Part shown: piece after piece, positions 37,255-54,825 of the stretch
How positions within the stretch are numbered: position 1 is the first letter of the stretch
Layout: every line of letters begins with the position of its first letter
From: an uncultured delta proteobacterium
GTDB lineage: Bacteria; Desulfobacterota; BSN033; UBA1163
DNA length: 64,000 nt
NCBI GenBank assembly: GCA_963708295.1
Contig: CAVPSJ010000014.1
Coordinates: forward strand, 1-64,000
Reading direction: 5' to 3'
Notes under the pieces: model-generated
Database searches by the model: none
What the model saw: only the letters and a program-made list of their open reading frames with translations
Told to the model about the DNA's origin: nothing
Position numbers and translations under genes: made by a program

Positions 37255-37440
37255 TGGGTGAGATTCCGCAAGAGGTGAGGGTTTCTCCGCTAATGAAATT
37301 CCAAATTTCACAAATTCACAAAGTCAGTCTATACTCAGGCGGGAGTAACCTTCTTAAGTTACTGAATTAAAATGAAATTTTTTGATATCAGAAAACAGGT
37401 CTTTCTGCCCGCCGAATAAGAAACTTGGTATGGGAATTGC
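37255..37440 (+). promoter_or_regulatory. Sigma-54 promoter of the nanowire operon with tandem activator sites
   Basis: TGGTATGGGAATTGC (GG-N10-GC) at 37426-37440; sites TGGGTGAGATTCCGCA 37255-37270 and TGAGGGTTTCTCCGCT 37276-37291. Confidence 0.7.
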
Positions 37441-37470
37441 GTTATACAGTCTAGTTGAAGTTAAGCCCAA

Positions 37471-38427
37471 GTGAAACGCGCCATGAAGATTAAACTGACG
37501 AGGTTATTCGTAGGATTTTTGTTAATTGTTCTTTTCGTGATGGGGATTTCGACTTCCGTCAAGGCGAATGTCAAGGCTGCGTTTCTATACAGCCTTTCTA
37601 ACTTCACAGGCAAGATACCTTATAGCGCCACAAGGATCAGCGTCGATAAACAATCGGGAGAGATTTACGTCATCTATGAAAACCTGCTGAAAGTATTTAA
37701 TCAAGCCGGAATGGAAATTTACCGTTTCGGTGAAGATTTAGATGTTGGACAAATCCTCGATCTGGCTGTCGATCCGAATGGTGACCTGCTGCTTCTTACG
37801 GTCAAGGATTCGAAACAGATGTTGGTCCAATGCAATTACAGGGGAGATCCGACATCCGAAATAGGGCTAAGAAACCTTCCCCCTGAGTTTTCCGGAGTTG
37901 TGGCGAATCGCCTGGTATGCCATGGCGAAAGCCTCTATTTCGGATCTGCCGGAGGGATGAAAATTGTCATTACCGACCTGGAGGGCAACTTTAAGAAAGG
38001 ATACGACCTGATCTCCCTTCTTGAGCTCAAAGAAGAGGACAGGGGAAACATGGAGATATTCGGTTTTAGCGTAGACGGGAACGGAAATATTCTATTTACG
38101 ATTCCTGTCCTGTTTAAGGCCTTCATGCTTTCAGATGATGGGAAAATTTCGTATTTCGGGAGGCCGGGCGGCGCCCCGGGCAAATTCAATATCGTTTCAG
38201 GAATTGTAAGGGATAGTAGAGGGAATTTTCTGGTGGTTGACCGATTGAAGTCCGCCGTGATGATTTTTGACAAGAAGCTTAGTTTCGTGACCCAGTTTGG
38301 CTATCGCGGTTTCAAGCCGGAAAACCTCTTTAACCCGGATGACATCGCCATTGATAGCAATGACAGGATCTATGTGACCCAGCAAAGAAAAAGGGGGGTA
38401 AGTGTTTTCAAGCTGACTTACGATTAG
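37471..38427 (+). CDS. Secreted NHL-repeat beta-propeller protein
   Basis: Signal peptide; FGRPGGAPGKFNIVSGI, FNPDDIAIDSNDRIYVT repeats; directly upstream of omcS-like gene. Confidence 0.85.
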   Translation: MKRAMKIKLTRLFVGFLLIVLFVMGISTSVKANVKAAFLYSLSNFTGKIPYSATRISVDKQSGEIYVIYENLLKVFNQAGMEIYRFGEDLDVGQILDLAVDPNGDLLLLTVKDSKQMLVQCNYRGDPTSEIGLRNLPPEFSGVVANRLVCHGESLYFGSAGGMKIVITDLEGNFKKGYDLISLLELKEEDRGNMEIFGFSVDGNGNILFTIPVLFKAFMLSDDGKISYFGRPGGAPGKFNIVSGIVRDSRGNFLVVDRLKSAVMIFDKKLSFVTQFGYRGFKPENLFNPDDIAIDSNDRIYVTQQRKRGVSVFKLTYD

Positions 38428-38631
38428 GCTTTAGTTGGCAGACACGTGACACAAAGCACGGTCACGTTTTTTCGATTTCACAGGGGGTAATTCGGGGGGA
38501 AATAAAAAATAAAGAAGGAGGTGGTCGAAGGCAATCGATAATAAGCAAGTGATCAGTGATCGGTAATCAGTAGGCAGTAAACAGTAAACACTAAGCAGGA
38601 AGCAGGAAAAAAAATTTATTAGGAGGACAAA

Positions 38632-39873
38632 ATGAAAGGATTGAAATTGAGTTTGGTTATCATGGCTGCAGCCTTGTTAACCATCGGTTTAGGCGGAGTG
38701 GCCTATGCCTTCCATGCCGGCGGCGTTGCGGAATGTGCCGGATGTCACAGCATGCATAGCCCAATGGGCGTACATCTATTACTTGCCTCAGATGCCAGTT
38801 CGACATGTTTGACCTGCCATGAGCACGCGGGAGATACGGGTCCGAGTTCGTATCACGTGAGCACTGCCCAGGCCAATTTGACGGTGGGAACCGCTCCCCT
38901 CCAGAGAGGTCCGGGAGGAGATTTTGCCTGGCTGAAGAAAAACTATGCCTATACGTCCCATGGAACGGCGAGTTATGAAGACGCCTCTATCCACGGCCAC
39001 AGCATTATTGCTGCGGATAACGGATATACGGTTGTTGATCCTGTGCATGCCACATCACCTGGTGGCAGTTTCATGTCAAGCAACCTTGGCTGCGACAGTT
39101 GCCATGACCCTCACGGAAAAGGCAGAATACTCAGCAGCGGCACATACGCGTCTACTGGCGCCCCGATCATAGCATCCGGTTCAACGGCCAGTGCTCTTCC
39201 CGCCGCTGGTCAGGCGTTTGGCCTCTACAGAATACTGGCTTGGCCAGGCTATGCCGGAGCTCCAGGCGCGACATACACCACATGGCCGATTGCGATATCC
39301 CCATCTAGTTACAACAGGACCGAAGCGGCCACCATGACTCGAATTGCGTATGGCGGCGGAGCTAGCGCGAATGGTTGGGGAAAATGGTGTGGAACTTGCC
39401 ATGCGGCTATAGCCAACAATTCAGGACTTCAAGGCCATCCTTCCCACAAGGTCGACACCGCGTTAGGCTCTACGTATGGAACTATTTACAATAATTACGT
39501 GAAAACGGGCGATATGTCCGGGACCTTTGGTGGCACAACGCCTGGTCCCTACACCTCACTCGTCCCGTACCAGGAAGCTACGAGTGCTATTCCGACTCTT
39601 TATAGTCATGCGAAAACCGACAATTGCGTCCTTGGCGGTCCCTCCACGAGCGATGAGGTAACGTGTCATTCCTGCCACAGGTCGCATGCATCCGGATGGA
39701 CGCATGCGTTGAGGTGGAATAATGACACAACGTTTATCGTGAGCAACGGTGTGTATCCTGCTGAGCAGGGCCGTACTGCTATAGAGACACAGGGGGCCTA
39801 TTACGACCGGCCGGCTACTGTCTTTGCAGCCTACCAGAGGTCGCTCTGTAACAAGTGCCATGCGATGGACTAA
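38632..39873 (+). CDS. omcS: OmcS-like hexaheme cytochrome (nanowire subunit)
   Basis: Signal ending AYA then FHAGGVAECAGCHSMH; HAGDTGPSSYHVSTA, PGGDFAW, CDSCHDPHGK, YNRTEA, CHRSHASG, YQRSLCNKCH; six CxxCH, collinear with Geobacter OmcS as recalled. Confidence 0.9.
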   Translation: MKGLKLSLVIMAAALLTIGLGGVAYAFHAGGVAECAGCHSMHSPMGVHLLLASDASSTCLTCHEHAGDTGPSSYHVSTAQANLTVGTAPLQRGPGGDFAWLKKNYAYTSHGTASYEDASIHGHSIIAADNGYTVVDPVHATSPGGSFMSSNLGCDSCHDPHGKGRILSSGTYASTGAPIIASGSTASALPAAGQAFGLYRILAWPGYAGAPGATYTTWPIAISPSSYNRTEAATMTRIAYGGGASANGWGKWCGTCHAAIANNSGLQGHPSHKVDTALGSTYGTIYNNYVKTGDMSGTFGGTTPGPYTSLVPYQEATSAIPTLYSHAKTDNCVLGGPSTSDEVTCHSCHRSHASGWTHALRWNNDTTFIVSNGVYPAEQGRTAIETQGAYYDRPATVFAAYQRSLCNKCHAMD

Positions 39874-39933
39874 TTCAACCCTTTTCTCTCTCTCCATCTG
39901 AAAGGAAGGTGGCTGGGAGTAAAGGAAAGAAGG

Positions 39934-39966
39934 AGGGGGCCGGTATCTACCGGCCCCCTTTTTTTT
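39934..39966 (+). terminator. Rho-independent terminator after omcS
   Basis: AGGGGGCCGGTA-TC-TACCGGCCCCCT followed by T-run. Confidence 0.85.
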
Positions 39967-40051: not shown

Positions 40052-41671
40052 ATGATTCCGAAAAAAGCTCCATGCCCCTTGCTCTCTGCCCTATGCCCTT
40101 TGCGCTCTCGCCCCTCAGGGGAGAGGGGAAAAGCCTGCCGCGTTCTTAATACCGGGGGGAGGGGTCGTATGCCTGCCCTCCGAAAGCTCGCTGCAGGAGG
40201 GCACTATGCTCTACCTGGCCTACGAAGCCTCCGATTCTGGGGCGTAGTGGGCTGCGCTATGCTGATTCTTGCAATGCTGGGTTGCCAGGCAGCCGTGACA
40301 AGGATTAGGCCTCCCCTTGAAGAGGAGGGGGAAGTCTATCTTTATATCCAGGCTTATCCTCAGGAGGCCGAGCGACTCCGGTTTACGGTTGACGAAGCAT
40401 TTGCAGTCAGCGCTGATGGAAGAGAATTCCCGTTGGATACTTATTTGCACGAAATAAAATCGAGTGACTTGAGAAGGCAGCGGCTTCTGGGTTCCGGCAG
40501 AATTCCACCTGGTTCCTATGTCGGTTTCTCGTTCAAGACCAAAAAAGCTACTTTAAGGGGCGAAGAGGGTGAAGCCGACCTTTTGGTACCCGAGAAGTCC
40601 GTGCGAAGTGAATTCAATTTCAGGGTGAATAGAAAGACCGGATATGTTTTCTTTCTTTCCTTCAAGTATAAGGAGTCGATCGAAGCCGGTTTCAGCTTCA
40701 GTCCTGTATTTTCCGTATCTGTTCCAGCTAAACCCATCTTAAGCCTTGCCGGGTATATAAGCAACGCGGTTTCCAGCAATCTCACGGTATTTGATAAGAA
40801 AGCGACGCAGGTTACAGGCTTAATACCTGTCGGACGGGAACCGTCGGGAATGGCACTCGACCAGAGATCAAGAAGACTTTACGTGGCGGACTCAGGAGAT
40901 AATGAAATCTTAGTCGTAGACATTCTGGCAGATCAGGTGACAAACAAAATTAGACTGACCAGTGGAGATCGCCCACTGGAGCTGGCCCTTACCCCTGACG
41001 GGAGGACGCTCCTTTCGGTCAATCATGGTTCGAATACCGTAAGTTTCATAGACCCTACTTCTCTGTTTGAGTTGAACAGGGTAAATGTCGGCAATGGCCC
41101 TCGCTCCATTGTGATCGATCCTGCCGGCAGAAGGGCTTATGTGTTCAATACCGTCTCTGGGACGATCACTGTGCTCGACATACCAAACCGGGCCATCATC
41201 ACCACGTTTTCCACGGACCCCGGTCCGTTAAGAGGGGACTTCAGCCCAAAGGGTGATAACCTTTATGTCATTCACGAGCTCTCTTCTTATCTGGCAGTCA
41301 TTGACCCTGTCTCATTCAGAGTCTTGAAGAGATTTTCGATTGGGCCTGGAATGATCTCGATCAAGGTCGACAGCCGGACAGGTCTGGTTTATATTAGCCG
41401 AAGGAATGATATTTTTGTGGGAGTATACAATCCCTTCTCTTTTGTTGCCGTCGATCTTATAAGAACCGGAGGGACAGTCAATTATATGACGATTGACGAT
41501 GAGGAAAATAACCTCTACATGGTTAGCTCTGAGATGAAGAGAATCATTGTGAGTAACCTCGTGAGAAAAAAGATTCTGTATGAGGTCGATGTGGGGGAAA
41601 CCCCCTACTGGGTGAGCGTCATGGGGGAACGTCTTCTGCAGATTATTAGAACACCCGTTTTTCGACAATAA
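40052..41671 (+). CDS. oscD: YVTN/YncE beta-propeller lipoprotein (OscD-like)
   Basis: Lipobox-like AMLGC; repeats LYVADSGDN, LLSVNHGSNTVSFID, AYVFNTVSGTITVLD; true start uncertain; symbol assigned by synteny. Confidence 0.7.
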   Translation: MIPKKAPCPLLSALCPLRSRPSGERGKACRVLNTGGRGRMPALRKLAAGGHYALPGLRSLRFWGVVGCAMLILAMLGCQAAVTRIRPPLEEEGEVYLYIQAYPQEAERLRFTVDEAFAVSADGREFPLDTYLHEIKSSDLRRQRLLGSGRIPPGSYVGFSFKTKKATLRGEEGEADLLVPEKSVRSEFNFRVNRKTGYVFFLSFKYKESIEAGFSFSPVFSVSVPAKPILSLAGYISNAVSSNLTVFDKKATQVTGLIPVGREPSGMALDQRSRRLYVADSGDNEILVVDILADQVTNKIRLTSGDRPLELALTPDGRTLLSVNHGSNTVSFIDPTSLFELNRVNVGNGPRSIVIDPAGRRAYVFNTVSGTITVLDIPNRAIITTFSTDPGPLRGDFSPKGDNLYVIHELSSYLAVIDPVSFRVLKRFSIGPGMISIKVDSRTGLVYISRRNDIFVGVYNPFSFVAVDLIRTGGTVNYMTIDDEENNLYMVSSEMKRIIVSNLVRKKILYEVDVGETPYWVSVMGERLLQIIRTPVFRQ

Positions 41672-41673
41672 GA

Positions 41674-42478
41674 AGCATAGAGCATGGCAACATAATGAGC
41701 ACCAAATTCCAAACCACAAATTCCAAATAAGCTCCAATGACCCAAATTCAAAAATCCAAACTCTTTGATTTAGAAGAAAGGTTCTTCGCTCTCCTCCAAC
41801 CATTCCCTCTTTGGCAAAAGGGTAGATCCGAACATTCCCCCCTTTGGAAAAGGGTAAATCCAAACACTCCCCCCTTTGGAAAAGGGGGGTGGGGGGGGAT
41901 TTTTAGAACATATGCTTTCTTATGATAAGCAGTTGAAATCGTTATCGCAGCATCTCAGAAAAAATATGACGGATGCTGAAAACCTATTGTGGTCAAAATT
42001 GAGGCGAAAGCAACTGAAAGGGCATCCGTTTTATCGTCAAAAGATTATCGGGAAGTATATCGTTGATTTTTACTGTCCGAAGGCAAATCTTGTTGTAGAG
42101 CTTGATGGTGGACAACACTATTCTGAGATAGGGCAAGTAAGAGATAGGGTAAGAGACGATGTTCTTGAGGAAATGGGATTAAAGGTCCTCAGGTTTTCGG
42201 ACAGGGATGTTTTTGAGAATATCGGCGGAGTGACGGAAATGATATGGAGTCGTTTATGACCTATAAAATCTCCCCTTGCCCCTCTTTACCAAAGAGGGGG
42301 AAAGAAAGAGAGAAATTTGCCAAAGAGGGGAAAAGGAAAAGGTCCGATGGATGCCAGGGGGGATTATTTGGAGCTTGGAATTTGGGATTTGGAGTTTTAA
42401 AAAAAGTTGATATGTCCCTTGCCAATTGTTCTATCCTTGTCAAATTTATCCCTCTGCTCTCTGCCCTCTGCTCTCTGC
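41674..42478. mobile_element. Nested palindromic cassette carrying a DUF559 gene
   Basis: Three concentric inverted-repeat layers (41674-41688/42451-42478; 41698-41760/42361-42398; 41786-41904/42265-42331). Confidence 0.6.
41912..42259 (+). CDS. DUF559 / very-short-patch-repair-like endonuclease
   Basis: LRKNMTDAENLLWSKLR, FYRQKIIGKYIVDFYC, VELDGGQH, RDDVL...GLKVLRF. Confidence 0.9.
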   Translation: MLSYDKQLKSLSQHLRKNMTDAENLLWSKLRRKQLKGHPFYRQKIIGKYIVDFYCPKANLVVELDGGQHYSEIGQVRDRVRDDVLEEMGLKVLRFSDRDVFENIGGVTEMIWSRL

Positions 42479-44670
42479 TGATTTTATTGTTGCTGTTGCC
42501 TATTGGGGCAAATGCCCAGGGTCTATTTCAGGGAATTACCGGCTCTTTGGAATTCAATTACAATTATTTGACTTCCAAGACAACCGATGCGACCGGAAAT
42601 ACGGTGAAAACAAGAGCACAGACCTATTTCCCTCGATTTCAATTTGATATCAACACGGATATCTTTCCCAATCTGAGACTAATGGCTGGCGGGATTGCGG
42701 AAGGGTTTATAACAGACCTTAAATCAGATGGGTCTGACGTCACGACGACGCAGCTTAATTTCAGACCATACATCGATCTTACTCTGAGGACGCCCTTTTA
42801 TTGGGCGAGTATGGGCTACGTGAGAAGACAGCAGATAACAGATGCCACGAATTCGTCTTCTATCAATCTTATCAGAGATGAGTATTACGGAATTCTTGGA
42901 TTGCGACCCGAGGGGTTACCATTCATGGAGTTGCAACTTAGAAAGAGAGATTCTTATGACGATGCCAAGTCAATCCTGAATACTACGGAGGAGTTGATCA
43001 GCCTCAATTCAAGATATCAATATAAAGGTCTTCTGCTTGATTATTACGGTACTTATCTGCATACGAAAGATGAAGTACGCAATCTTGACGTTGTCCAGCA
43101 GACCCATACGGGGAGAGCTTCCTATTCAGATTCGTTTCTTGATAAACGATTAGCGGTCAATACCAATTATAACGTATTGTACCAGGGAACGACGACCAAA
43201 TCAACAAAACAAGGAGTCATAGACCAGGGAGTTGTAACCTCTCAGGCCTTTCCCACCGGAGGCCTCTTCGCCATAGATGATACACCTCTCGATGGTGCGT
43301 TAAATCCGAATCCTGCCCTCATTGATGGTGATCTGACAGCCAGTGCGGGAATCAATATCGGCCTGCCTCCGGGAGTAGATACCAGTCTGAGGAATATTGG
43401 TCTCGACTTCACGACCCCCACGGAGGTGAACCGGCTCCTCCTGTGGGTTGACAGGGATCTTTCTACGGCGTCCGATATTGTAAATTTCTTTTCTTTAAAC
43501 TTGAAGGTCTACGTCAGTTCCGATAATTTGAACTGGGTCGCCTGGCCAATCACTCCTCCAATCACTTTTGGACCTTTCGAAAATCGTTTTGAAATTAAAT
43601 TTGCAAACGTCGTTCCTCCCAGACGCTTTATAAAGGTGGTGACCCCTCCCTTGAGTCCGGCTGTTCCAGGGGCCTTTGGCTTTCCGAACATTTTCATCAC
43701 AGAATTACAGGCATTCCTTGATACATCAACAAGTACTTTCCAAAATAATAGGCAAAATAAGACCAACACAATTACCAACAACTATGATATAGACTTGAAA
43801 ATGAGGATTCTGGACGATCCGTCTTTGTTCTATGAATTCTATGGTTACTACAATAACAGGCAGAACGCTGTTGACGAGACGAGGTATACCATCTCGAATG
43901 CATTTTACACTTTCCATAGATTTAACGAAGTCTTTTCAGGCAGGGCAAGGGTGGCAGTGGAAAATGGAAAGGAACTGGAAGATAAGAGGGTTGCTTATAT
44001 TTATGATGCTGCGCTTATAGCCGACCCCTTGAGAACGCTCCACAATAGCCTCGTCGTCAACGGCAGGAACGAAGAAATAGGCGGGAGACCTAATGATGTG
44101 AATTCGGTATTTCTATATAACACCGCGCAATTGTATAAAGGGATAGATGTGAGTCTTAATGGCGGTGTAAATTTTACAAAGCAGGAAACGGGTGAAAGCG
44201 GAAGAGATTTTATTATTACTTTTCAGACGAATATCGTACCTCACAGAACGCTGACTCTGGGACTCAATTACAATAATACGGTAGCCCAGAAATCAGGGGG
44301 AAATCTGGGTTCCACGTCAACCACTACACAAATCCTTGATATTAATTTGAATTACAATCCCTTCACGACTTTAAATCTTTTTGCTTATCTCCAGTATGTT
44401 AGGGAATCGGGACAGAAGGATAGGATCCTTCAGAATTACGCTATCAACTGGATGCCTTTTCCCGATGGAGCACTTCAGTTTAATATTGCTTATAATGAAA
44501 ATTATAGGTCCGAGGACCACTTAACGGAAAGAATTTTCGTGCCAAGCGTCCGATATTACCTTTCAAAACGGTCATACTTACAAGTTTCATATCAATTAAT
44601 TCGAAGCAGTAGCGATATCGAGAAGATAGATTCGAACCTGTTTAGTACAAGTCTAAAGATATATTTCTGA
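42412..44670 (+). CDS. oscE: Outer-membrane beta-barrel with inserted soluble domain (OscE-like)
   Basis: Signal ending ANA, amphipathic beta strands, C-terminal aromatic LKIYF; symbol assigned by synteny. Confidence 0.65.
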   Translation: MSLANCSILVKFIPLLSALCSLLILLLLLPIGANAQGLFQGITGSLEFNYNYLTSKTTDATGNTVKTRAQTYFPRFQFDINTDIFPNLRLMAGGIAEGFITDLKSDGSDVTTTQLNFRPYIDLTLRTPFYWASMGYVRRQQITDATNSSSINLIRDEYYGILGLRPEGLPFMELQLRKRDSYDDAKSILNTTEELISLNSRYQYKGLLLDYYGTYLHTKDEVRNLDVVQQTHTGRASYSDSFLDKRLAVNTNYNVLYQGTTTKSTKQGVIDQGVVTSQAFPTGGLFAIDDTPLDGALNPNPALIDGDLTASAGINIGLPPGVDTSLRNIGLDFTTPTEVNRLLLWVDRDLSTASDIVNFFSLNLKVYVSSDNLNWVAWPITPPITFGPFENRFEIKFANVVPPRRFIKVVTPPLSPAVPGAFGFPNIFITELQAFLDTSTSTFQNNRQNKTNTITNNYDIDLKMRILDDPSLFYEFYGYYNNRQNAVDETRYTISNAFYTFHRFNEVFSGRARVAVENGKELEDKRVAYIYDAALIADPLRTLHNSLVVNGRNEEIGGRPNDVNSVFLYNTAQLYKGIDVSLNGGVNFTKQETGESGRDFIITFQTNIVPHRTLTLGLNYNNTVAQKSGGNLGSTSTTTQILDINLNYNPFTTLNLFAYLQYVRESGQKDRILQNYAINWMPFPDGALQFNIAYNENYRSEDHLTERIFVPSVRYYLSKRSYLQVSYQLIRSSSDIEKIDSNLFSTSLKIYF

Positions 44671-44822: not shown

Positions 44823-45407
44823 GTGATTGGTAAAATGAGAATTAGGCATCTAAAAATTTTCCTCATTTTTTCTGTCTTCTTCTTAACCTCATGTGCGACT
44901 TCATTAAGGGATGTCTATATCGACCCGAATATGGACTTCGGGGCAGTTAAAAGTATAGCCGTAATGCCTTTTTTGAGTCTTGCAAGAGATCCGGTTGTGG
45001 CCGACAGGGTAAGAGATGTCTTTATTAACAAGCTCTTGGCAACAGGCGCTGTCTATGTCCTGCCGGTTGGAGAAGTCGCCCGGGGAACCGCAAGGGCGGA
45101 AATTCAGAATCCCTCTGCGCCCTCTCCTGAAGAGGCGGTGAAGTTAGGGGGAATTATCAAGGTCCAGGCAATCATTACAGGGACGGTAAGGGAATACGGT
45201 GAGGTGAGATCCGGAACAGCTGCCGCAAATGTTGCATCTGTTAGCGTTCAGATGATCGAGACACAGACCGGCAAAGTCGTGTGGTCGGCTTCCTCTACGG
45301 AAGGTGGAGTTAATATATGGGACCGTCTTTTCGGCGGAGGTGGCAAGCCGATGAATAAAGTGACCGAGAAAGCAGTCGATGATCTTATCCGAAAACTATT
45401 CAAATAA
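44823..45407 (+). CDS. oscF: CsgG/GNA1162-like lipoprotein (OscF-like)
   Basis: Lipobox LTSC, SIAVMPF, AIITGTVREY, MIETQTGKVVWSAS. Confidence 0.7.
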   Translation: MIGKMRIRHLKIFLIFSVFFLTSCATSLRDVYIDPNMDFGAVKSIAVMPFLSLARDPVVADRVRDVFINKLLATGAVYVLPVGEVARGTARAEIQNPSAPSPEEAVKLGGIIKVQAIITGTVREYGEVRSGTAAANVASVSVQMIETQTGKVVWSASSTEGGVNIWDRLFGGGGKPMNKVTEKAVDDLIRKLFK

Positions 45408-46541: not shown

Positions 46542-46576
46542 AATACGGAGAGATTTGGGAATCGAAGAGAGGTGAT

Positions 46577-48207
46577 ATGAGACATTTTACTGGGGCGTCA
46601 AGAATCATACTGGTGCTTGGTTTTCTTCTTGGAATTTCAAGCATCGGGTTAGGACAAGATCTGCCAATGATTAAAGGGAAGAAGACTGTTGCCATCGTAA
46701 ACGGGGAGCCCATTACCTTAAGCGAATTCAATCAGGAACGGCGCGGGAGTAGAAAGCGAAGAGAAGAGGCTGGATTTACTCCGGCGGTTGATTAACTCAC
46801 GGCTGATGATTCAGGAAGCGAGAAGAATGGGGATTGATCAGTTAAAGGAATTAAAAGAGAGGGTTGACGTATTTGCGAAGGTGACACTCCGGGAAAAGTT
46901 GCTGGAAACACATATTAGAAATATTAAACCCGATGAGAAAAGAAGTAGAGAAGGTCTACCGGGAAGCCGTCAAAGAGTTCAAAATCAAATCGATCGTTTT
47001 TGATAAAGAAGAAGACGCCAACCAGATGGAGGGCTTGCTTAAGGACGGGAAGGACTTCGATAAGGTGTTGGAGAAATTTCTCTCGGAAAAAAAGGGGAAG
47101 GGGAGTCAGGAAGGAGTCTTTTTGAAGAATAAGGCATTGTTGCCGGAGATCGCAGAGGCCGTTTCAAAAATGAATGTTGGATCGATTAGCCCAGTTGTTC
47201 GAATTAAATCAGGCTATGTCGTTTTCAAAATCGAAGACATCCGTTATCCTGAAGACCCTGAAATAAAGAAAGAAGTGGAACTGGACCTGCTTACAAAAAA
47301 GCAGCAGGAAGCCATATCCAAATACTGTGAGGACCTAAACAAAAAGTACGCAAAAGTAAATCAGGAGCTTCTCAAGAGCCTGGATTTTGAGTCGAAAGAA
47401 CCAGGGTTCGAGAACCTTATCAAGGATAAGCGTGTGGTGGCAGAGATAAAGGGGGAGAGACCCATCACGGTGGGTGAGCTCACGGATTATATGCGGCAGC
47501 AGCTTTATCATGGCGTAGAGATGGCCGTTGAATCAAAAAGATTGAACAAGAGAAAAGCAAAAATACTGGATGAAATGCTTCAAAAAAGAACCCTCAGGGT
47601 AGAAGCGCTCCGGTTGGGTCTGGACAAGAAGGAAAGCTATAAGAACCAGGTCAAAGAACACGAAAACTCGTTAATCTTCGCTGCTTTCATTCAAAAGGCT
47701 GTCGCCCCGGACATCAAATTGAAAGAAGAGGAACTTAGGGCCTACTATGATCAACATATTAACGATTACACCCATCCTGAGATGATGAAAATAAGCGGTC
47801 TCGTCTTTTCAAAAAGGGATGACGCAGAGAAGGCCATCACCAACTTGCGAAAGGGGACAGATTTCCGGTGGGTGAAAGAGAATGCTGAAGGGCAAATCAA
47901 TCAAAACGAAAAGGGTGTGTTGGTTTTTGATGGAAGGCTCCTCACGACAAAAGATCTGCCCGAAGGAGTGAGCAAGGCCGTCACCGGGGCCAAAGCGGGC
48001 GATTTCAGACTTTATGAAAGCCCGGAGAAACATTATTATGTTTTGTACGTTCAGGAGGTTAATCCCTCGAGACCCCAGCCCTATGCAGAGGCGAAAGAAG
48101 AGATTGCGAAGAAGATCTATAATGAAAAACTTATCAAAGCCGTGGAGGACTATGCGGACAAATTGAGAGCCGTTTCGGAGGTAAAAATTTTTCTAAAGGA
48201 CAACTAA
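46577..48207 (+). CDS. oscH: SurA/PpiC-type peptidyl-prolyl isomerase chaperone (OscH-like), two frameshifts
   Basis: VAIVNGEPITLSEF, LINSRLMIQEA, VGSISPVV, VAEIKGERPITVGEL, two parvulin-like repeats. Confidence 0.75.
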
Positions 48208-48445: not shown

Positions 48446-48463
48446 AATTAAAAGGGAGTTGCC

Positions 48464-50465
48464 ATGTCATTCTTACGATCGAAAGTTAAAGTGCTCCTCT
48501 TAGGGATAGTCCTTTTACTCTGTGGAGTTCTGCTGTATGCCTGTGCCGAAGCGCCGCGGCAAAGGACCCTGGGAGGGGCTGCAGGTACGGGGAAGCGATT
48601 TGCACAGAAAGATTGCCTCGATTGTCACAAGAAGTTTGCGGACAAATATCTTGGGATGAAATATGTCCATGGGATGGTTAAAGAGAAAAAATGTGAAGAT
48701 TGCCATTTGCGTCATGGTCTTGTTCCAAAATTGATTCTGAAAAAAGAAGGTAACGAAATTTGCTATCCCTGCCACAGCCGGGAAAAGATAGGGCTAAACA
48801 AACCGAATGTTCATACGGCCCTGAAGAGAGGGAAATGCATTCAATGCCATAATCCCCATGCCTCCCAGTTCAGTCACCTGTTAAAAGCAGAAGGGAATGA
48901 AGCCTGCTATCAATGTCATAAAAAGGAGAATTACGAGAAGAAAGTCGTCCATAAAGTAGGGGCAAAAGGTTGTACGACGTGCCACTCTTCCCATAGTTCT
49001 GACCAGAAAGACCTTTTGGTGAAAGCGGAGACTCCTCTCTGCCTCAGCTGCCATGACAGCGGCAAGGAACCTTTTAAGAAGGCCCACGGGAATTATCCGG
49101 TGAATCAAGCCTTATGCTCAGGTTGCCATAATCCTCACTCTTCATCTCAAGTAAAGCTTCTGAAAACGAGCGCCCATAGTCCTGTGGCTTCAAAAGAATG
49201 CGATGCATGCCATAAGCCCCCGTCAGACCCAAAGCCTTTTGCGACCACGGAGGCAGGGAGCAAGCTCTGCTATAATTGTCATGACGCCTCAAAATTGAAA
49301 GCCGGTGGAAGTGTAGAACATGGTCCTTTTAAAGAAGGAGAATGTCTTACTTGTCATACCGCCCATACTTCGGAATACCCGCAGCTTCTTGCTAAGAGAG
49401 GGAATCTTCTCTGTTTTGATTGTCATAAGGAAAAAAGTGAGAAGCGTGGCCGTCAATCATGCTCCTGTCACCAGTGAAAAGGGATGCCTTTCCTGCCATC
49501 CGCCTCACGCCGCCAAATACAAGAATCTTCTAAACACAAAAGACGCAGCTCTATGTTTTTCATGCCATACGAAGACAAGGGACGCGCCGAAGTCTAAAGT
49601 ATCTCATGCTCCCTTTTGTCGAAGGGGAATGTAATTCATGCCATAATCCTCATGGTTCGAATATCAAAAATATTATTAAGGACAGGATGGACAGGGTTTG
49701 TTATACGTGCCATTCCGATGCCGAAGCAAAGTTTTTGAAGACCTATACCCATAAACCCGTCGTGGATGCGAACTGTGATGCCTGCCATCAGTCCCACGGA
49801 TCGAATGAGAAGAATCTCCTGAAATTTAGCGGTTCCAAGATGTGCGCTCAGTGTCATGGCGATCTCATGAAAGCGGAGACGAGCGGCACGAACCATAACC
49901 CTTTTGCAGAAGGGGAATGTCTCACATGCCATGATGCCCATGGGAGCAATATTAAAGGGATGACCGTGAATAAAGAAGGTGCTCTCTGTTTCTCTTGCCA
50001 CGGAGATGTGAGCAAAGGGCTAAAAGCTGCAAAGAGCCAGCACAAGCCCCTGTTAACGGATGAATGTACGAAGTGCCACAGCCCTCACAAGACAAAATTA
50101 GACAAACTTCTTTTGGCAAAGAGTCCTGATCTTTGTCTGACCTGTCATAAAGACCTGAAGACCAAGATGGAAAAGGAAAAGGCGCATCAACCGGCTGCTC
50201 GGGATTGCGAGAGATGCCATAAGCCCCATTTTTCAGCGGAGTCGCCTCCTGATGAATCAGGCCATTCAGCCCTTATGCGGGGAATGCCACGATTTTAAGA
50301 AGCCAGCCTTTGGCAAGGCTCACCTCGATATCGAGGCGGCGTGTCATGGATTGCAGAACTTGCCATGATCCCCATGCTTCAAAAGACCCGAAGTTCTTCA
50401 AGACTGTTATTCATCCTCCGTTTGCGGGAAGGTCGTGTGAGGACTGCCACGTCGTCAGTAAGTAA
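48464..50465 (+). CDS. 26-heme c-type cytochrome lipoprotein (GSu_C4xC__C2xCH repeat type), about four frameshifts
   Basis: Lipobox LYAC; CxxCH counted across joined frames 12+2+9+1+2=26; ends SCEDCHVVSK* at 50465. Confidence 0.8.
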
Positions 50466-50563
50466 AGATGCAAAGCGCATAGAGCATGAGGGCACGGGGC
50501 ATAGGGAAAGAGAGAAAAGATATTACGGACTGACGGATTGAAAGAGTTATGAAAGGGTATCCA

Positions 50564-51901
50564 ATGAAATTGCGATTGAAATGGTTCTTCTTATTCACAG
50601 GTTTGATTTTGATTCTGGTTTTTTCGGCGGCTTATGGGCAGCAGAATAAATTCAAGCTGAAACCTGGCGCCCAGGGGAAACTCTGTCTGGAATGTCATGA
50701 TGCCTTCAAGGAAAAGCTCAAGAATCCATTTGTCCATACCCCCGTGAAGACGGGAGAATGCACGGAATGTCATAATCCGCATTCTTCCTCTCATGGAAAG
50801 TTGCTGGACGAAGATCCAAACAAAATCTGCAATAAGTGCCATGAAGGGATTGTGCCCAAGGATCCAAAGAGCATTCATAAAGTTGTGATGGAAGGCAATT
50901 GCGTAAAATGCCATGACCCCCATGCCTCAAAAAACAAATTCGTCCTTCTGAAAGCGGGAAACGAACTCTGTTTTGATTGTCACAAAAATATCGGCAATGC
51001 CGTCACCAAAGCAAAGTTCAAGCACAGTCCTGTGGAGAAAGGATGCGTCGGTTGCCACGAGCCGCATGCTTCGACCAAAGGAAAACATCTTCTGAAAAAT
51101 GATCTGGTGGCTCTCTGTGTGAGCTGTCACAAGACGGACCAGGCTTCCTTTTCAAAGCAGCATATGAATTATCCCGTGGCGAAGTCAGACTGTTCGTCTT
51201 GTCATGACGCCCATGGCTCGAATAAGGCAGGAATATTATTCGATAATGTGCATGCATCCGGTTGCGAATAAAATGTGCAACCAGTGCCATGAAGCCTCCA
51301 CTTCTCCCGATGCGCTCAAGACCAAGAAGGCCGGGTTTGATCTGTGTCGTGGTTGTCACAGCAGCATGATGAATGAGGCATTTAATAAGAACCGGATCCA
51401 CTGGCCTCTGGTGGATAAGGTGGGTTGTTTGAACTGCCATGAGCCCCATGCCTCGCAACAGAAAAAGCTTCTGATGGGGGACATGAAAACCTTGTGTGGA
51501 AAGTGTCATATGGACACCATGGAGTCACAGGAAAAGCTTGTCAAAAAAGAGAAGCAGGAAAATGCTGCTGTCGGAAAGGTGGCCGCGATCAAGGGTGCCA
51601 TCACGCACAATCCCATACAAGAAGGAAATTGCGACGCCTGCCATTCGTCTCATGCGCTCTGATAGTGTTTTCCTTTTGAAGCGGCCCTTCCATTATTGAA
51701 AGTCTGCGGAACCTGCCACGATTGGACGAAACATACGAGCCACCCCATGGGGGAGAAGATCATTGACTCGCGAAATAAGAACATTACCATGCAGTGCCTG
51801 AGTTGTCATCAGGTCTCACGGAACCGGATATCGGATATCTGATGCCTTTCCCGACGGTCACGGATCTTTGCGTCCAGTGCCACAAACAATACAAGAGGTG
51901 A
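50564..51901 (+). CDS. 16-heme c-type cytochrome, frameshifted
   Basis: Signal peptide; CxxCH counted across frames 8+5+3=16; ends LCVQCHKQYKR* at 51901. Confidence 0.8.
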
Positions 51902-52102: not shown

Positions 52103-53016
52103 ATGGTAGGAACTTCGATTAAAATCATAATGATTATTGGCATTCTGCTTTTGCCGATGAAGTCTTTTAGCGCTGAAACGGTGAAGTTTAGGTACCTTCA
52201 ATCTGTCTATTTCGATGAGAAAGGGTGGAGGCATGAAGCAACCGGAAGGAGTTGCCTGCGGCGAAAAGGATCTCTCTGATCGTTGGCGATACCGGAAAAC
52301 GATCGTCTTCTCCGGTATACCTTCCAGGAAAAGAAGTTTAAAGGCTGGAACCGAGATTAAAATCCCGCAGCTATCCAATCCGATCCGACTTCAAATCAAT
52401 TCCAAGGGAGAAATTTTTGCTCTGGATGGTAAGAAACGGCGCATCATCCGGCTGAATCCTGACGGAACGTTCAAAGGCTATGTGGATGCAGAGGGTATCC
52501 CTTCCCCTTCAACCTTCGTTCCGAGGAGCTTTAAGATAGACAGGAATAATAATATCTACATCCTCGATATATTTTCAGGCCGTGTGCTGGTCCTCAACTC
52601 CGGAAGGCAAATACCAAAAACAGATTCCATTCCCGAAAGATTATGGATTTTTCTCCGACCTATCCGTCGATTCGAAAGGTACGCTGTTCTTAATCGACTG
52701 TGTCAAGGCCATGGTTTTTTCGGCCGCTAAGGATTCAAACAGCTTTTCTCCGTTAACAAAGAATCTGAGAGAATATCTAGATTTTCCAACCAGCATCACA
52801 ACGGATAACCGGGGGACCATTTTTATCGTCGACCAAAATGGGAGCGGCATCGTTATTCTCGGACAGGATGGGTCTTTTCAGGGGCGGCAGTTGAACATGG
52901 GATGGAATGAGGGTCTTCTATACTATCCTTCTCAGATGTGTATCAACGAAAAGGGAGAGGTTTTCATCGCCGACCGGGGCAATAGCCGGGTTCAGATATT
53001 TACGCTCGTTAAATAG
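52103..53016 (+). CDS. Secreted NHL-repeat beta-propeller protein, frameshifted
   Basis: Signal; MKQPEGVAC, IYILDIFSGRV, YYPSQMCINEKGEVFIADRGNSRVQIF. Confidence 0.78.
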
Positions 53017-53077: not shown

Positions 53078-53170
53078 GTCATTGCGAGCCCGCCCCGTTC
53101 CGGGATTCTTCGGAAGAGGCCGTGGCAATCTCGCTCTGAGATTGCTTCCTCGCTACACTCCTCGCATGAC
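53078..53170. repeat. REP-like palindrome (GTCATTGCGAG type)
   Basis: GTCATTGCGAG...GTGGCAATCTC gctct GAGATTGCTTC...CTCGCATGAC. Confidence 0.7.
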
Positions 53171-53220
53171 CTACTAGAACCGCGATACAAATTATAATAT
53201 TTTCTGTTTAATAAATGAAA

Positions 53221-53267
53221 ATAAAAAGAGGGCCAGCGGGTAATCTGCCAGCCCTCTTTGTTTTTTT
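53221..53267. terminator. Bidirectional terminator between the convergent osc operon and second omcS-like gene
   Basis: AAAAAGAGGGC...GCCCTCTTTGTTTTTTT. Confidence 0.7.
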
Positions 53268-53301
53268 GCCGAACGGCTTGAATTCTATCCCCCCGACAAG
53301 G

Positions 53302-54543
53302 TCAGTCCATCGCATGGCATTTGTTACAGAGCGACCTCTGGAAGGCTGCAAAGACAGTAGGCGGCCGGTCGTAATAGGCCCCCTGTGTCTCTATAGCCGT
53401 ACGGCCCATCTCGGCAGGATACACGCCGTTGCTAACGATGAACGATGCCTCATTATTCCACCTCAAGGCATGCGCCCAACCGGATGCGTGCGACCTGTGG
53501 CACGAGTGACACGTTACCTCATCGCTCGTGGAGGGGCCACCAAGGACGCTATTGTCGTTTCTCGCATGACTTGCAAGGGTCGTAATAACACTCGTGGCTT
53601 CCTGGAACGGGACGAGTGAGGTGTAGGGACCAGGCGTTGTGCCACCAAAGGTCCCAGACATATCGCCCGATTTCACGTAATTATTATAAATAGTTGCATA
53701 CGTAGAGTTTAAAGCGGTGTCGACCGGGTGGGAAGGATGGCCTTTAAGTCCTGTCATGTTGGCTATGGCCGCATGGCAAGTTCCGCACCATTTCCCCCAA
53801 CCATTAGCGCTACCGCCGCCGCCATAAGCAATTCGAACCATATTCGTCGCTTCGGTCTGGTTGTAAGTAGACGGAGAAACTGCGATCGGCCATGAGGTAT
53901 AAGTCGCACCTGGAGCCCCGGCATAACCTGGCCAGGCCAGAATCCTGTAGAGACCGACCGCCTGACCAGCTGCTGGAACAATGCCTGTGGAGCCGGATGC
54001 TATAATCGGGGTGCCGGTACTCGCATATGAGCCGTCGCTGAGTCTCCTGCCCTTTCCGTGAGGGTCATGGCAACTGGCACAGCCAAGGTTGCTTGACAGG
54101 AAACTGCCACCCGGAGATGTGGGATGCACAGGATCAACAGTCGTATAGTTGTTGTCCGCAGCGATAATGCTGTGACCGTGGACAGATCCGTCTTCGAAAT
54201 CGGCCCCCTGCGCCGTCAGGGCATAGTTTTTCTTTAACCAGGCAAAATCTCCGGCCGGACCTCTCTGTAAGGGAGCGGTTCCAACGGTCAAATTGGCGTC
54301 TGCAGTGCTCACGTGGTACGAAGTCGGACCCGTATCCCCTGCGTGCTCATGGCAGGCCAAACATGTTGAACTGGCTTCTGAGGAAATTAAGAGATGGGAA
54401 CCCGACATTGGGCTATGCATGCTATGACACCCGGCACACTCCGCAGCGCCGCCCGAATGGAAGATCTGTTGCGCTAATCCGTTGACACTCGTGATTAATA
54501 GAAATGCAACAACGATCCCCAGACTTAACTTTGGTGCTTTCAT
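53302..54543 (-). CDS. Second OmcS-like hexaheme cytochrome
   Basis: MKAPKLSL signal, QQIFHSGGAAECAGCHSMH, six CxxCH; closely similar to 38632..39873 along its length. Confidence 0.9.
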   Translation of the reverse strand: MKAPKLSLGIVVAFLLITSVNGLAQQIFHSGGAAECAGCHSMHSPMSGSHLLISSEASSTCLACHEHAGDTGPTSYHVSTADANLTVGTAPLQRGPAGDFAWLKKNYALTAQGADFEDGSVHGHSIIAADNNYTTVDPVHPTSPGGSFLSSNLGCASCHDPHGKGRRLSDGSYASTGTPIIASGSTGIVPAAGQAVGLYRILAWPGYAGAPGATYTSWPIAVSPSTYNQTEATNMVRIAYGGGGSANGWGKWCGTCHAAIANMTGLKGHPSHPVDTALNSTYATIYNNYVKSGDMSGTFGGTTPGPYTSLVPFQEATSVITTLASHARNDNSVLGGPSTSDEVTCHSCHRSHASGWAHALRWNNEASFIVSNGVYPAEMGRTAIETQGAYYDRPPTVFAAFQRSLCNKCHAMD

Positions 54544-54636
54544 TTTTCCCTCCTTCTTTCTTACTCTTATTCCGTAGTCCCGGCCCTTCATCAAACCCTT
54601 TTTCCCCTATTTTTCTTTATCGTTTGGCCTGCCAAC

Positions 54637-54825
54637 TGTGTAAAAATCCTCAGCAGATGAGAATTTTCCCCCTGGCATATGCTGAATTTCTCATAAACAT
54701 TCCATCCCCCTGAAATCGGTCTTTTCTCTTTCTTCCTGTAATTTTTTGATTTTTAAAGATAATTTGGAATATCAGGAATAATTTTACTAAAGAAGAAATG
54801 GCAAGGGGTATGGAACAGAAATTGC
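54637..54825 (+). promoter_or_regulatory. Sigma-54 promoter with tandem activator sites, divergent from second omcS-like gene
   Basis: TGGAACAGAAATTGC at 54811-54825; sites TGTGTAAAAATCCTCA 54637-54652 and TGAGAATTTTCCCCCT 54658-54673. Confidence 0.6.

What the first reader, a model, noticed from the sequence alone, without database searches (positions are those of the whole stretch)
37255..54673. Complete OmcS cytochrome-nanowire locus in an apparently non-Geobacter deltaproteobacterium
Seen: NHL gene, hexaheme cytochrome, beta-propeller, beta-barrel, two CsgG-like proteins, PPIase, 26-heme and 16-heme cytochromes, NHL gene, second hexaheme cytochrome. Known: Geobacter sulfurreducens OmcS starts FHSGGVAECEGCHTMH and polymerises through His16 ligating a heme of the next subunit; the omcS-companion (osc) cluster supplies OscD, OscEFG and OscH. 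Both copies here keep the FHxGGxAECxGCHxMH motif including His16. Inferred: the organism builds conductive filaments; moderate GC and the neighbouring TRAP/PaaK/glgC genes suggest a non-Geobacter lineage, but no marker gene is in the window.
Basis: partly seen in the sequence, partly recalled or inferred. Interest (0 to 1): 0.85.

Follow-up and report, generated by a model that had tools for sequence, protein, structure and literature searches.

The report
OmcS nanowire gene cluster outside Geobacter
This stretch holds the full gene set of the kind Geobacter uses to build and export its conductive OmcS protein wires, here in an unrelated sulfite-reducer-type bacterium that would likely make such wires too; such clusters outside Geobacter are already in print, so the find is sound but ordinary.

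Summary
Two full-length OmcS-family hexahaem genes (38632-39873 +, 53302-54594 -; E 2.9e-88 and 1.5e-90 to PDB OmcS over chain residues 1-407; six CXXCH; His16 kept) bracket an eight-gene block. Its order matches what papers describe for Geobacter GSU2500-2493, the osc 'omcS companion' cluster. The block holds a YVTN propeller, a predicted ~28-strand outer-membrane barrel, two lipoproteins, a prolyl isomerase, a 26-haem and a 16-haem cytochrome, and an NHL protein.

- Five of the eight accessory genes are split by about 16-17 single extra bases as assembled.
- The haem counts of 26 and 16 appear only when these bases are skipped.
- The breaks are most likely assembly errors. They cause no internal stops, relatives lack the bases, and a near-identical second assembly reads across one break.
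- The 'CsgG-like' proteins score below Pfam's cut-off. Their nearest solved relatives are PelC and GNA1162.
- By position the hexahaem gene matches GSU2501 (oscC), not omcS itself.

The host is not Geobacter. Named RpoB relatives at 87-89% carry Syntrophaceae, Thermodesulfobacteriota, Desulfobacterota or Deltaproteobacteria labels, and the genome has dsrA.

Spread outside Geobacter is already published (Shen et al. 2025, title only seen; Portela et al. 2024), so this is a new member of a known kind. One modest extra is that the subunit phylogeny conflicts with the machinery phylogeny.

The parts
37471..38427 (+). NHL-repeat propeller protein with a signal peptide (NHL1), in the GSU2502-like position upstream of the hexahaem gene
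   Evidence: PF01436 at 30 bits and DUF5128 at 30 bits. Intact against the G009 orthologue, with 0 frame events. Conserved next to the hexahaem gene in L001-L005, L022-L027 and L029.
38632..39873 (+). OmcS-family hexahaem cytochrome, copy 1 (predicted filament subunit; oscC/GSU2501 position)
   Evidence: phmmer against PDB 6EF8/6NEF gives E 2.9e-88, query 27-413 on chain 1-407. Six CXXCH. His16 is present. The signal peptide ends AYA before FH.
39934..39959 (.). G+C-rich 11-bp-stem hairpin just after the subunit gene (possible attenuator; hint only)
   Evidence: The number of terminator-like sites in the region is no higher than in shuffles.
40052..41671 (+). YVTN-type beta-propeller, probable lipoprotein (OscD position). 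The true start is probably near 40205.
   Evidence: TIGR02276 at 97 bits and PF10282 at 54 bits. 57-60% identical to same-genus orthologues. 0 frame events.
41876..42259 (+). DUF559 endonuclease-like gene inserted in the propeller-barrel spacer, preceded by three 32-nt tandem repeats (41795-41890)
   Evidence: PF04480 at 120 bits. Repeats. The spacer is 139-187 bases in G025, G016, G009 and L008, but 760 and 1878 in G011 and G017.
42244..44670 (+). Large outer-membrane beta-barrel (OscE position). The likely start is 42409. About 28 strands with an inserted domain at residues ~266-448.
   Evidence: AlphaFold2 pLDDT 81.9, pTM 0.60. The Foldseek top hit is MtrB 6R2Q_B, E 2.7e-9, TMq 0.29. VIA Z is 14-17 and all 50 rows are OM barrels. 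No Pfam, NCBIfam or PDB sequence match.
44823..45407 (+). Small lipoprotein (lipobox LTSC), PelC/GNA1162-like (OscF position)
   Evidence: Profile A3 against PDB: 5T0Z E 8.5e-6, PelC 9H80 E 6.1e-5, GNA1162 4HRV E 2.1e-4. Pfam CsgG, GNA1162 and LpoB are all under their cut-offs.
45461..46541 (+). Two-domain lipoprotein-like protein whose C-terminal half is PelC-like (OscG position). Split by one extra base near 45959.
   Evidence: Both halves lie in one frame in 7 of 7 relatives aligned. Profile A4 against PDB: 5T11 E 4e-5, PelC 9H80 E 0.002. P0506 from a near-identical second assembly reads across the break in one frame.
46574..48207 (+). SurA/PpiD-like prolyl isomerase (OscH position). Its N-terminal part is split by frame breaks near 46760 and 46938.
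   Evidence: PF13145 at 117 bits and PF00639 at 28 bits. HSPs in three frames. Extra base at 46938. Relatives' contigs lack a base at 46936.
48464..50465 (+). 26-haem lipoprotein cytochrome (OscI/GSU2495 position), split by four extra bases (49445, 49611, 50248, 50342)
   Evidence: With these bases skipped it reads 665 aa with 26 CXXCH and no internal stop. 78% identical to the intact 26-haem orthologue of G017.
50549..51901 (+). 16-haem cytochrome (OscJ/GSU2494 position), split by five frame events (51257, 51657, 51688, 51810, 51835)
   Evidence: With these skipped it reads 448 aa with 16 CXXCH and no internal stop. 82% identical to the G017 orthologue.
52106..53016 (+). Second NHL-repeat protein (GSU2493 position), split by five extra bases (52220, 52272, 52297, 52334, 52599)
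   Evidence: PF01436 at 44 bits.. Reads 301 aa when the bases are skipped.
53302..54594 (-). OmcS-family hexahaem cytochrome, copy 2 (likely start 54546). It forms a 1.2-kb inverted repeat with copy 1.
   Evidence: phmmer against 6EF8 gives E 1.5e-90, chain 1-407. 82% identical to copy 1. Inverted arms are 84-90% complementary. dN/dS 0.26.
40063..40104 (.). Short 7-nt repeat array in a gene spacer. Like arrays lie at 42366-42479 and 48340-48443.
   Evidence: families D4 and D5. Very high contig depth at 48227-48483 in all four runs laid.

Best explanation
The locus is an osc-type ('omcS companion') cytochrome-nanowire gene cluster in a non-Geobacter, dsrA-bearing bacterium, and it is predicted to export an OmcS-family hexahaem protein that would likely polymerise into conductive filaments outside the cell.

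Shown here:
- There are two full-length OmcS homologues with six haem motifs and His16.
- The gene order is NHL, hexahaem, propeller, barrel, lipoprotein, lipoprotein, PPIase, 26-haem, 16-haem, NHL.
- The same order is found in 14 other genomes or MAGs.

Inferred pathway:
1. The apo-protein crosses the inner membrane by Sec and receives its haems in the periplasm.
2. The prolyl isomerase helps it fold.
3. It passes the outer membrane through the ~28-strand barrel, which is gated or funnelled by the two PelC-like lipoproteins.
4. Outside the cell, His16 of one subunit ligates a haem of the next, as in Geobacter OmcS.
5. The lipoprotein 26-haem and the 16-haem cytochromes feed electrons across the periplasm.
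6. The propeller modulates filament morphology, a role taken from citing papers.

The frame breaks in five genes are taken to be assembly errors.
For: Homology to OmcS:
- Homology covers the whole mature chain.
- There are six CXXCH.
- H16 and 11 further His are invariant in 30 homologues.

Gene order:
- The eight-gene block after the hexahaem gene matches passages read in bioRxiv 10.1101/2025.11.06.686851 (GSU2501 plus GSU2500-2493; GSU2495 has 26 haems). It also matches PMC13194489 (oscC=GSU2501, oscI=GSU2495, oscJ=GSU2494; OscH folding, OscEFG secretion, OscD morphology).
- Synteny is kept in G009, G011, G015, G016, G017 and G025, in G089, G175, G292 and G415, and in L001-L005.
- G292 is Geobacter-like: one of its copies scores 495 bits against PDB OmcS.

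Parts:
- The barrel fold is supported.
- The two lipoproteins are PelC-like.

Frame breaks as errors:
- 15 of the 16 events placed are one extra base.
- The corrected frames hold no stop codon.
- Four control genes have no events.
- Relatives' contigs lack a base at or within 3 bases of five of the placed events, and within 11 bases of a sixth.
- A second, near-identical assembly reads across the 45959 break. It carries a break in OmcS1 where the window is intact.
- Both subunit copies are under purifying selection, dN/dS 0.26.
Against: - No filament, expression or protein data exist for this organism.
- Only G. sulfurreducens OmcS itself is known to polymerise. The functions of OmcT, OmcJ and GSU2501 are unknown (bioRxiv 10.1101/2025.11.06.686851).
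- The window's copies are no closer to the OmcS-like copy of G292 (41% identical) than to its GSU2501-position copy (45%).
- As assembled, five accessory genes are broken. The breaks are clustered in 45.4-53.1 kb, while about 12 other genes compared in the window are intact. Uniform error would not give this pattern.
- No Geobacter-type PpcA reaches its cut-off in the genome: 40.8 bits against 120.
- I could not compare directly with G. sulfurreducens Osc proteins, and I could not read Shen et al. 2025.
Confidence: 0.75

Rival explanations
1. The cluster exports a cell-surface hexahaem cytochrome that stays monomeric or forms only short oligomers. It would be an OmcT/OmcJ/GSU2501-like role rather than a micrometre-long wire.
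For: - Only OmcS is shown to form wires, and its paralogues have unknown roles (passages in bioRxiv 10.1101/2025.11.06.686851).
- The window's genes sit in the GSU2501 position.
- In the tree they lie apart from the copy most like PDB OmcS.
Against: - His16 and the whole N-terminal motif are invariant.
- In four relatives that carry the full machinery (G009, G011, G016, G025), this type of protein is the only OmcS homologue found in the genome. There it must be the machine's substrate.
Confidence: 0.18
2. The 3' half of the cluster is truly decaying in this strain. The frame shifts are real, so the organism no longer assembles anything.
For: - About 16-17 frame events are concentrated in 7.7 kb.
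- The 5' half and about 12 other genes compared in the window have none.
- No public run holds this exact strain, so the bases could not be checked.
Against: - Nearly all events are one extra base, and there are no nonsense codons in 665+448+301 corrected codons.
- The broken genes are the best conserved of the cluster: 72-86% identical to same-genus orthologues, against 41-60% for the intact subunit, propeller and barrel genes and 67-71% for the first lipoprotein.
- A near-identical second assembly lacks the 45959 break and has another break elsewhere.
- A deletion bias of real bacterial gene decay would also argue against this. That point is recalled, not tested.
Confidence: 0.12
3. The contig is misbinned or chimeric, so the cluster does not belong to the Syntrophaceae-labelled, dsrA-bearing genome.
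For: - The first 6.5 kb of the window and contig have 67-69% G+C against about 50% elsewhere. They carry an ABC ATPase, a HisKA_3 kinase and a SnoaL gene.
- Genome contamination is 5.6%.
Against: - From 6.5 kb onward, G+C matches the genome.
- Flanking genes on both sides of the cluster are 75-88% identical and syntenic with the same-genus genome G015.
- The machinery tree groups the window with family f1.
Confidence: 0.04

Closest known systems
omcS-companion (osc) cluster of Geobacter sulfurreducens, GSU2504-GSU2493. Source is Shen et al. 2025, Cell Chem Biol 32:239, of which only the title was seen. Content comes from passages in PMC13194489 and bioRxiv 10.1101/2025.11.06.686851.
   Same: - A hexahaem OmcS-like gene is followed by an eight-gene block.
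- The fifth gene is a prolyl isomerase and the sixth a 26-haem cytochrome.
- The block holds a propeller, a channel-like trio and NHL proteins.
- The same order occurs in the Geobacter-like genome G292. There the proteins are 27-59% identical to the window's.
   Different: - There is no omcS-omcT pair upstream.
- The only subunit genes are a GSU2501-position copy and a second copy, 82% identical, placed after the last gene in inverted orientation.
- A DUF559 gene is inserted.
- The host is a dsrA-bearing, Syntrophaceae-labelled lineage without a Geobacter-type PpcA over cut-off.
OmcS filament subunit (PDB 6EF8, 6NEF)
   Same: - Alignment is full-length, E 1e-88 to 1e-90.
- All six CXXCH, His16 and the other conserved His are kept.
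- The mature N-terminus begins FH.
   Different: - Many positions differ across the aligned chain; I did not compute a percent identity.
- Two short deletions lie near the N-terminus and C-terminus.
- It is not the specific orthologue of GSU2504.
PelC-PelB outer-membrane export gate of the Pel polysaccharide system (PDB 5T0Z, 5T10, 5T11, 9H80). The ring-and-porin architecture is recalled from Marmont et al. 2017 and was not read here.
   Same: Small lipoproteins whose nearest solved relatives are PelC chains sit next to a large outer-membrane barrel gene.
   Different: - The sequence similarity is weak, E 1e-5 to 1e-3.
- The cargo would be a folded haem protein, not a polysaccharide.
- The barrel is far larger than a PelB-type porin. 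No oligomeric state was tested.
MtrB of the MtrCAB porin-cytochrome complex (PDB 6R2Q chain B)
   Same: It is the top Foldseek match of the barrel model (E 2.7e-9) and gives the longest VIA alignment (440 residues, Z 14.5). It is a wide barrel that houses a multihaem cytochrome.
   Different: TM-score is only 0.29 and identity 7-8%. TonB-dependent receptors, ushers and LptD score alike. The likeness is therefore that of large barrels in general.

Membership tests
OmcS-family hexahaem cytochrome (PDB 6EF8/6NEF) | Sequence homology over the whole mature chain | tested here: met
   E 2.9e-88 and 1.5e-90, with chain residues 1-407 covered.
OmcS-family hexahaem cytochrome (PDB 6EF8/6NEF) | Six CXXCH motifs and enough conserved distal His for bis-His ligation | tested here: met
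   Both copies have six CXXCH. In 30 homologues 12 His are invariant and H2 and H49 are nearly invariant.
OmcS-family hexahaem cytochrome (PDB 6EF8/6NEF) | His16 in the N-terminal FHxGGxxxCxGCHxMH motif. Its role as the inter-subunit haem ligand is recalled from Wang et al. 2019 and Filman et al. 2019. | tested here: met
   Present in both copies. H16 is invariant in alignment A1.
OmcS-family hexahaem cytochrome (PDB 6EF8/6NEF) | Polymerises into filaments | not testable with these tools
   This needs protein work or microscopy.
OmcS proper (orthologue of GSU2504, as against OmcT, OmcJ and GSU2501) | Groups with the copy most like PDB OmcS and sits upstream of omcT and GSU2501 | tested here: not met
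   - The window's copies form a clade of 7 (100/99). It excludes L021_990, the G292 copy that scores 495 bits against OmcS.
- Copy 1 sits directly before the propeller, which is the GSU2501 position.
osc (omcS-companion) cluster | Hexahaem gene followed by an eight-gene block in the order propeller, three channel-like genes, PPIase, 26-haem cytochrome, second large cytochrome, NHL | tested here: met
   The order is compared with passages in bioRxiv 10.1101/2025.11.06.686851 and PMC13194489. The assignment of letters D-H to GSU2500-2496 is my own arithmetic from oscC=GSU2501 and oscI=GSU2495.
osc (omcS-companion) cluster | Sequence similarity of each accessory protein to the G. sulfurreducens Osc proteins | tested here: inconclusive
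   No G. sulfurreducens sequences were at hand. Against the Geobacter-like G292 cluster the identities are propeller 37%, barrel 27%, lipoproteins 59% and 41-42%, PPIase 38%, 26-haem 58-59%, 16-haem 54% and NHL 38-47%.
osc (omcS-companion) cluster | Open reading frames intact | tested here: not met
   Five of eight accessory genes are split as assembled. This is most likely assembly error.
CsgG family (Pfam PF03783) | Score at or above Pfam's gathering cut-off | tested here: not met
   18.2 and 17.8 bits against a cut-off of 20.8.
PelC / GNA1162-like lipoproteins | Significant profile match to solved PelC or GNA1162 chains, plus a lipobox | tested here: inconclusive
   - Profile matches have E 8.5e-6 to 2e-4 for A3 and 4e-5 to 0.02 for A4.
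- The lipobox LTSC in the first lipoprotein was seen by eye.
- Pfam GNA1162-like scores 23.4 bits, under the cut-off of 25.9.

The most novel reading that the evidence does not exclude
One conserved export and assembly machine serves interchangeable filament subunits.

- Within a single genus and family the machinery genes follow the organisms' kinship. The hexahaem subunit genes fall into at least three unrelated clades, whose nearest relatives sit in other families and in MAGs labelled Acidobacteriota.
- This genome keeps two diverged subunit paralogues (82% identical, both under purifying selection). They form inverted repeats around the machine.

Nanowire subunits would then be swapped or sorted like pilins or flagellins, perhaps to tune redox or surface properties.
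Probability: 0.3. Interest if true: 0.5.

Novelty: new member of a known kind. Interest (0 to 1): 0.3.

Why it matters
- The locus adds a dsrA-bearing, Syntrophaceae-labelled lineage to the organisms that carry the full OmcS-type nanowire kit. Contigs from relatives of this lineage were found in wetland and peat metagenome runs. It is in line with the published view that the kit is widespread.
- In such habitats conductive filaments could link these bacteria to iron minerals, humic matter or methanogens. That would bear on carbon and methane budgets, but it is inference only.
- For annotation the useful points are practical:
  - The cluster's barrel has no family model, although about 900 clusters of relatives exist.
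  - The 'CsgG-like' lipoproteins are better called PelC-like.
  - Frame breaks in this assembly should not be read as pseudogenes.

Tried and rejected
**Searches and predictions that gave nothing usable**
- Complex prediction with two copies of mature OmcS1 on alignment A1 returned no answer (score 0.01 against a mark of 0.42). It is evidence neither way.
- The look-up of sequencing runs listed no RNA holder and no run with more than 0.08 of the stretch's words. Expression and the exact strain's bases could therefore not be checked.
- The contigs laid are mostly 90-95% alike. They are relatives, not this strain.
- A search for a near-identical full-length 26-haem protein found none above 56% identity (search for homologous proteins, 'longer'). 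It also missed the 80%-identical G015 orthologue, so the blank means little.
- Exact look-up of four cytochrome fragments found nothing, probably because the gene starts differ.
- The profile of the barrel against PDB sequences gave no real match.
- The protein atlas gave no taxa for RpoB.
- The promoter and terminator scan gave counts equal to shuffles.

**Literature**
- Shen et al. 2025 could not be opened by PubMed id or PMC id.
- A search for 'omcS-companion' found 0 papers.
- A search for OmcS together with Syntrophales, Syntrophaceae or Syntrophia matched 23 papers on two or more terms. None of the 12 listed holds 'OmcS'. I saw no paper on this host lineage, but the search is weak.

**Readings considered and dropped**
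- That the two 'CsgG2' ORFs are separate genes. They lie in one frame in 7 of 7 relatives.
- That the host is Acidobacteriota, because the best genome-contig hit carries that label. RpoB says otherwise.

Full report
**What is there**

Window 37.4-54.6 kb holds the following genes on the + strand:
- an NHL-repeat protein, 37471-38427
- a hexahaem cytochrome, 38632-39873
- a YVTN beta-propeller, 40052-41671 (TIGR02276, 97 bits)
- an inserted DUF559 gene, 41876-42259
- an 808-codon ORF with no Pfam or NCBIfam family, 42244-44670
- a small lipoprotein, 44823-45407
- a second lipoprotein-like gene in two frames, 45521-46541
- a prolyl isomerase, up to 48207 (PF13145, 117 bits)
- two large multihaem cytochromes in several frame pieces, 48464-51901
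- a second NHL protein in pieces, up to 53016

A second hexahaem cytochrome lies on the - strand at 53302-54594. The two hexahaem genes form an inverted repeat of about 1.2 kb, 84-90% complementary, with 13.4 kb between the arms.

**The hexahaem proteins are OmcS homologues**

- phmmer against all PDB chains finds OmcS (6EF8, 6NEF) with E 2.9e-88 and 1.5e-90. The alignment covers chain residues 1-407, which is the whole mature protein. The next hits have E near 1e-3.
- Both have six CXXCH.
- Both carry the N-terminal FHxGGxAECAGCHSMH with His16.
- In a 30-row alignment of homologues, C9, C12, H13, M15 and H16 are invariant, and so are 10 further His.
- The two copies are 82% identical. With dS 0.42 and dN/dS 0.26, both have been kept by selection.
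- The genome has no third copy.

**The companion genes**

The paper that named the osc cluster (Shen et al. 2025) is not held. I rely on passages in papers that cite it.
- PMC13194489 gives oscC=GSU2501, oscI=GSU2495 and oscJ=GSU2494. It assigns the roles OscH folding, OscE/F/G secretion and OscD morphology.
- bioRxiv 10.1101/2025.11.06.686851 says that every genome with a GSU2501-like hexahaem gene has the eight-gene block GSU2500-2493 downstream. It also says that GSU2495 has 26 haems.

The window has exactly such a block, with a prolyl isomerase in fifth place and a 26-haem cytochrome in sixth.

*The barrel.* An AlphaFold2 model built on a 9-row alignment has pLDDT 81.9 and pTM 0.60. It shows about 28 long strands (residues 43-265 and 450-752) and a less confident inserted domain.
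- Foldseek's best PDB hit is MtrB of the Mtr complex (E 2.7e-9, TMq 0.29). TonB-dependent receptors, ushers and LptD follow.
- In the VIA second look all 50 rows are outer-membrane barrels, Z 14-17.
- The reading 'large OM barrel' is therefore confirmed, but no specific family is.
- The barrel family has 901, 667 and 386 representatives of 50%-identity clusters at E 1e-3, 1e-10 and 1e-30.

*The two lipoproteins.* The Pfam CsgG matches are under the cut-off. Profiles built from orthologues find PelC chains (5T0Z, 5T10, 5T11, 9H80) and GNA1162 (4HRV) as nearest solved relatives, at E 8.5e-6 and 4e-5.

**Frame breaks**

Five genes are split as assembled. I aligned the DNA to the intact orthologues of the same-genus genome G017 while allowing frame shifts. 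The events found are:

| Gene | Events | Positions |
|---|---|---|
| 26-haem cytochrome | 4 | 49445, 49611, 50248, 50342 |
| 16-haem cytochrome | 5 | 51257, 51657, 51688, 51810, 51835 |
| NHL2 | 5 | 52220, 52272, 52297, 52334, 52599 |
| Second lipoprotein | 1 | 45959 |
| PPIase | 1 in this alignment; a second near 46760 by tblastn | 46938 |

All events but one are a single extra base. The four control genes (NHL1, propeller, barrel, first lipoprotein) have none.

With the extra bases skipped, the genes read as follows, each to its own stop and with no internal stop:
- 665 aa with 26 CXXCH
- 448 aa with 16 CXXCH
- 301 aa

Further evidence that the breaks are errors:
- Contigs of relatives from four public runs lack one base at 46936, 49445, 50237/50240, 51655, 51687, 51704 and 52599. 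That table shows the best-supported rows only; 21 more were not shown.
- A second, near-identical assembly, known only through protein ids, helps. Its P0506 reads in one frame across the window's 45959 break. Its P0008 shows OmcS1 broken where the window is intact.
- Frame-split homologous genes are also seen in three of the five loci labelled MFD: L002, L003 and L005.
- Another gene on this contig, at 76.7 kb, is split in the same way.

I put about 0.8 on assembly error. The clustering of the breaks in 7.7 kb remains unexplained.

**Host**

- The genome has 4.95 Mb in 20 contigs, with completeness 91.5% and contamination 5.6%.
- It has a G+C content near 50%.
- Its RpoB is 92% identical to that of the genome behind L008, which is labelled 'uncultured delta proteobacterium'.
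- Its RpoB is 89% identical to that of the same-family genome G025.
- Named relatives at 87-89% carry the labels Syntrophaceae bacterium, Thermodesulfobacteriota bacterium, Deltaproteobacteria bacterium RBG_13_53_10 and Desulfobacterota bacterium. Only these 4 of the 120 listed carried an organism name, and none is Geobacter.
- Against G292, RpoB is 72% and 57% identical in two pieces. G292 is Geobacter-like, since one of its OmcS copies scores 495 bits against PDB OmcS.
- dsrA is present over its cut-off.
- A Geobacter-type cytochrome c7 (PpcA family) is not present over its cut-off.
- Genes flanking the cluster are syntenic with the same-genus genome G015, so the cluster belongs to this lineage.
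- The first 6.5 kb of the contig have 67-69% G+C and look foreign.

**Distribution**

- An OmcS homologue at E<=1e-20 was found in 5 of 14 other species of the genus and in 6 of 24 genomes of the family. It was found in 0 of 13 genomes from two other families of the class and in 0 of 3 further genomes.
- At E<=1e-30 it was found in 12 of 400 genomes drawn from the phylum.
- The protein database held 3281 homologues at E<=1e-10 among 8000 candidates scored. Their labels include Thiovibrio, Nitrospirota, Deferrimicrobium and Desulfobacteria.
- The gene order, or as much of it as each locus covers, recurs in every locus I fetched around a good match. These are six genomes of the family, four others of the phylum, and MAGs labelled Acidobacteriota (2), delta proteobacterium, Desulfurivibrionaceae and Nitrospirota.
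- A terminal second subunit gene in inverted orientation also occurs in G017 and G175.

**Subunit against machinery**

Accessory proteins are most similar to same-genus orthologues, but the subunit is not:

| Protein | Same genus | Other genomes and MAGs compared |
|---|---|---|
| Propeller | 57-60% | 37-46% |
| 26-haem cytochrome | 72-86% | 50-59% (30-32% in two MAGs whose loci lack the orthologue) |
| NHL2 C-terminal piece | 78-86% | 47-54% |
| Hexahaem subunit | 41-48% | 55% (G089), 54% (an Acidobacteria-labelled MAG) |

- A tree of propeller plus barrel plus lipoprotein keeps the family together (SH-aLRT 92).
- In the subunit tree the window's pair sits in a clade of seven (100/99) with G009, G011, G025, G089 and that MAG. 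G015 and G016 lie elsewhere.
- An AU test rejects a single clade of the family's subunits (delta lnL 122.7, p 1.7e-47). I named that group after I had seen the tree.
- Three rows were dropped before the tree: two duplicates and one truncated copy.
- The conflict can come from horizontal replacement or from sorting of old paralogues, and I cannot tell which. The Geobacter preprint already reports frequent loss, gain and duplication of omcS-like genes within Geobacter.

**Verdict**

The locus is a real, well-conserved osc-type nanowire cluster in a non-Geobacter host. Filament formation is inferred. Both the kind of system and its spread beyond Geobacter are already published, so interest is modest.

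Noticed in passing
window 1-6500: The first 6.5 kb of the window, which is also the contig start, have 67-69% G+C against about 45-53% for the rest. They encode an ABC ATPase, a HisKA_3 histidine kinase and a SnoaL-like protein. This is probably a chimeric contig end or foreign DNA.
   Followed up: partly
window 41795-42480; L026 15264-16024; L029 5248-7126: The propeller-barrel spacer seems to be an insertion site.
- Here it holds three 32-nt tandem repeats and a DUF559 gene.
- In G011 it is 760 bases, with a small ORF that looks GIY-YIG-like by eye.
- In G017 it is 1.9 kb, with a 562-codon ORF.
- In four other relatives it is 139-187 bases.
   Followed up: partly
window 40063-40104, 42366-42479, 48340-48443: Arrays of 7-nt units fill three gene spacers of the cluster. 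The bin 48227-48483 has a contig depth of 71-416 in all four metagenome runs laid, so the element is very common.
   Followed up: no
protein P0349: An 857-aa metagenome protein carries PPIase domains (PF13145, PF00639) fused to a multihaem cytochrome. This natural fusion links the two functions that are neighbours here.
   Followed up: no
L005 6793-16515: The Nitrospirota-labelled MAG has six tandem OmcS-like genes ahead of the propeller and barrel. One is broken, and two gave identical alignment statistics.
   Followed up: no
L021 17960-19201: In the Geobacter-like genome G292 the OmcS-like copy after the last NHL gene lacks His16. It reads CHSKT where the others read CHxMH.
   Followed up: no
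G000:C4:967076-968203: The dsrA match holds one in-frame TGA. I did not check whether this is an error, a selenocysteine or a real stop.
   Followed up: no
G000:C14:76690-77447 (outside the window): A 256-codon gene is split over three frames when compared with its G015 orthologue. This is a second spot of frame breaks on the contig.
   Followed up: no
G000:C5:58770-63173 (RpoB): Matches of this RpoB in genomes outside the family break at residues ~432-524.
   Followed up: no
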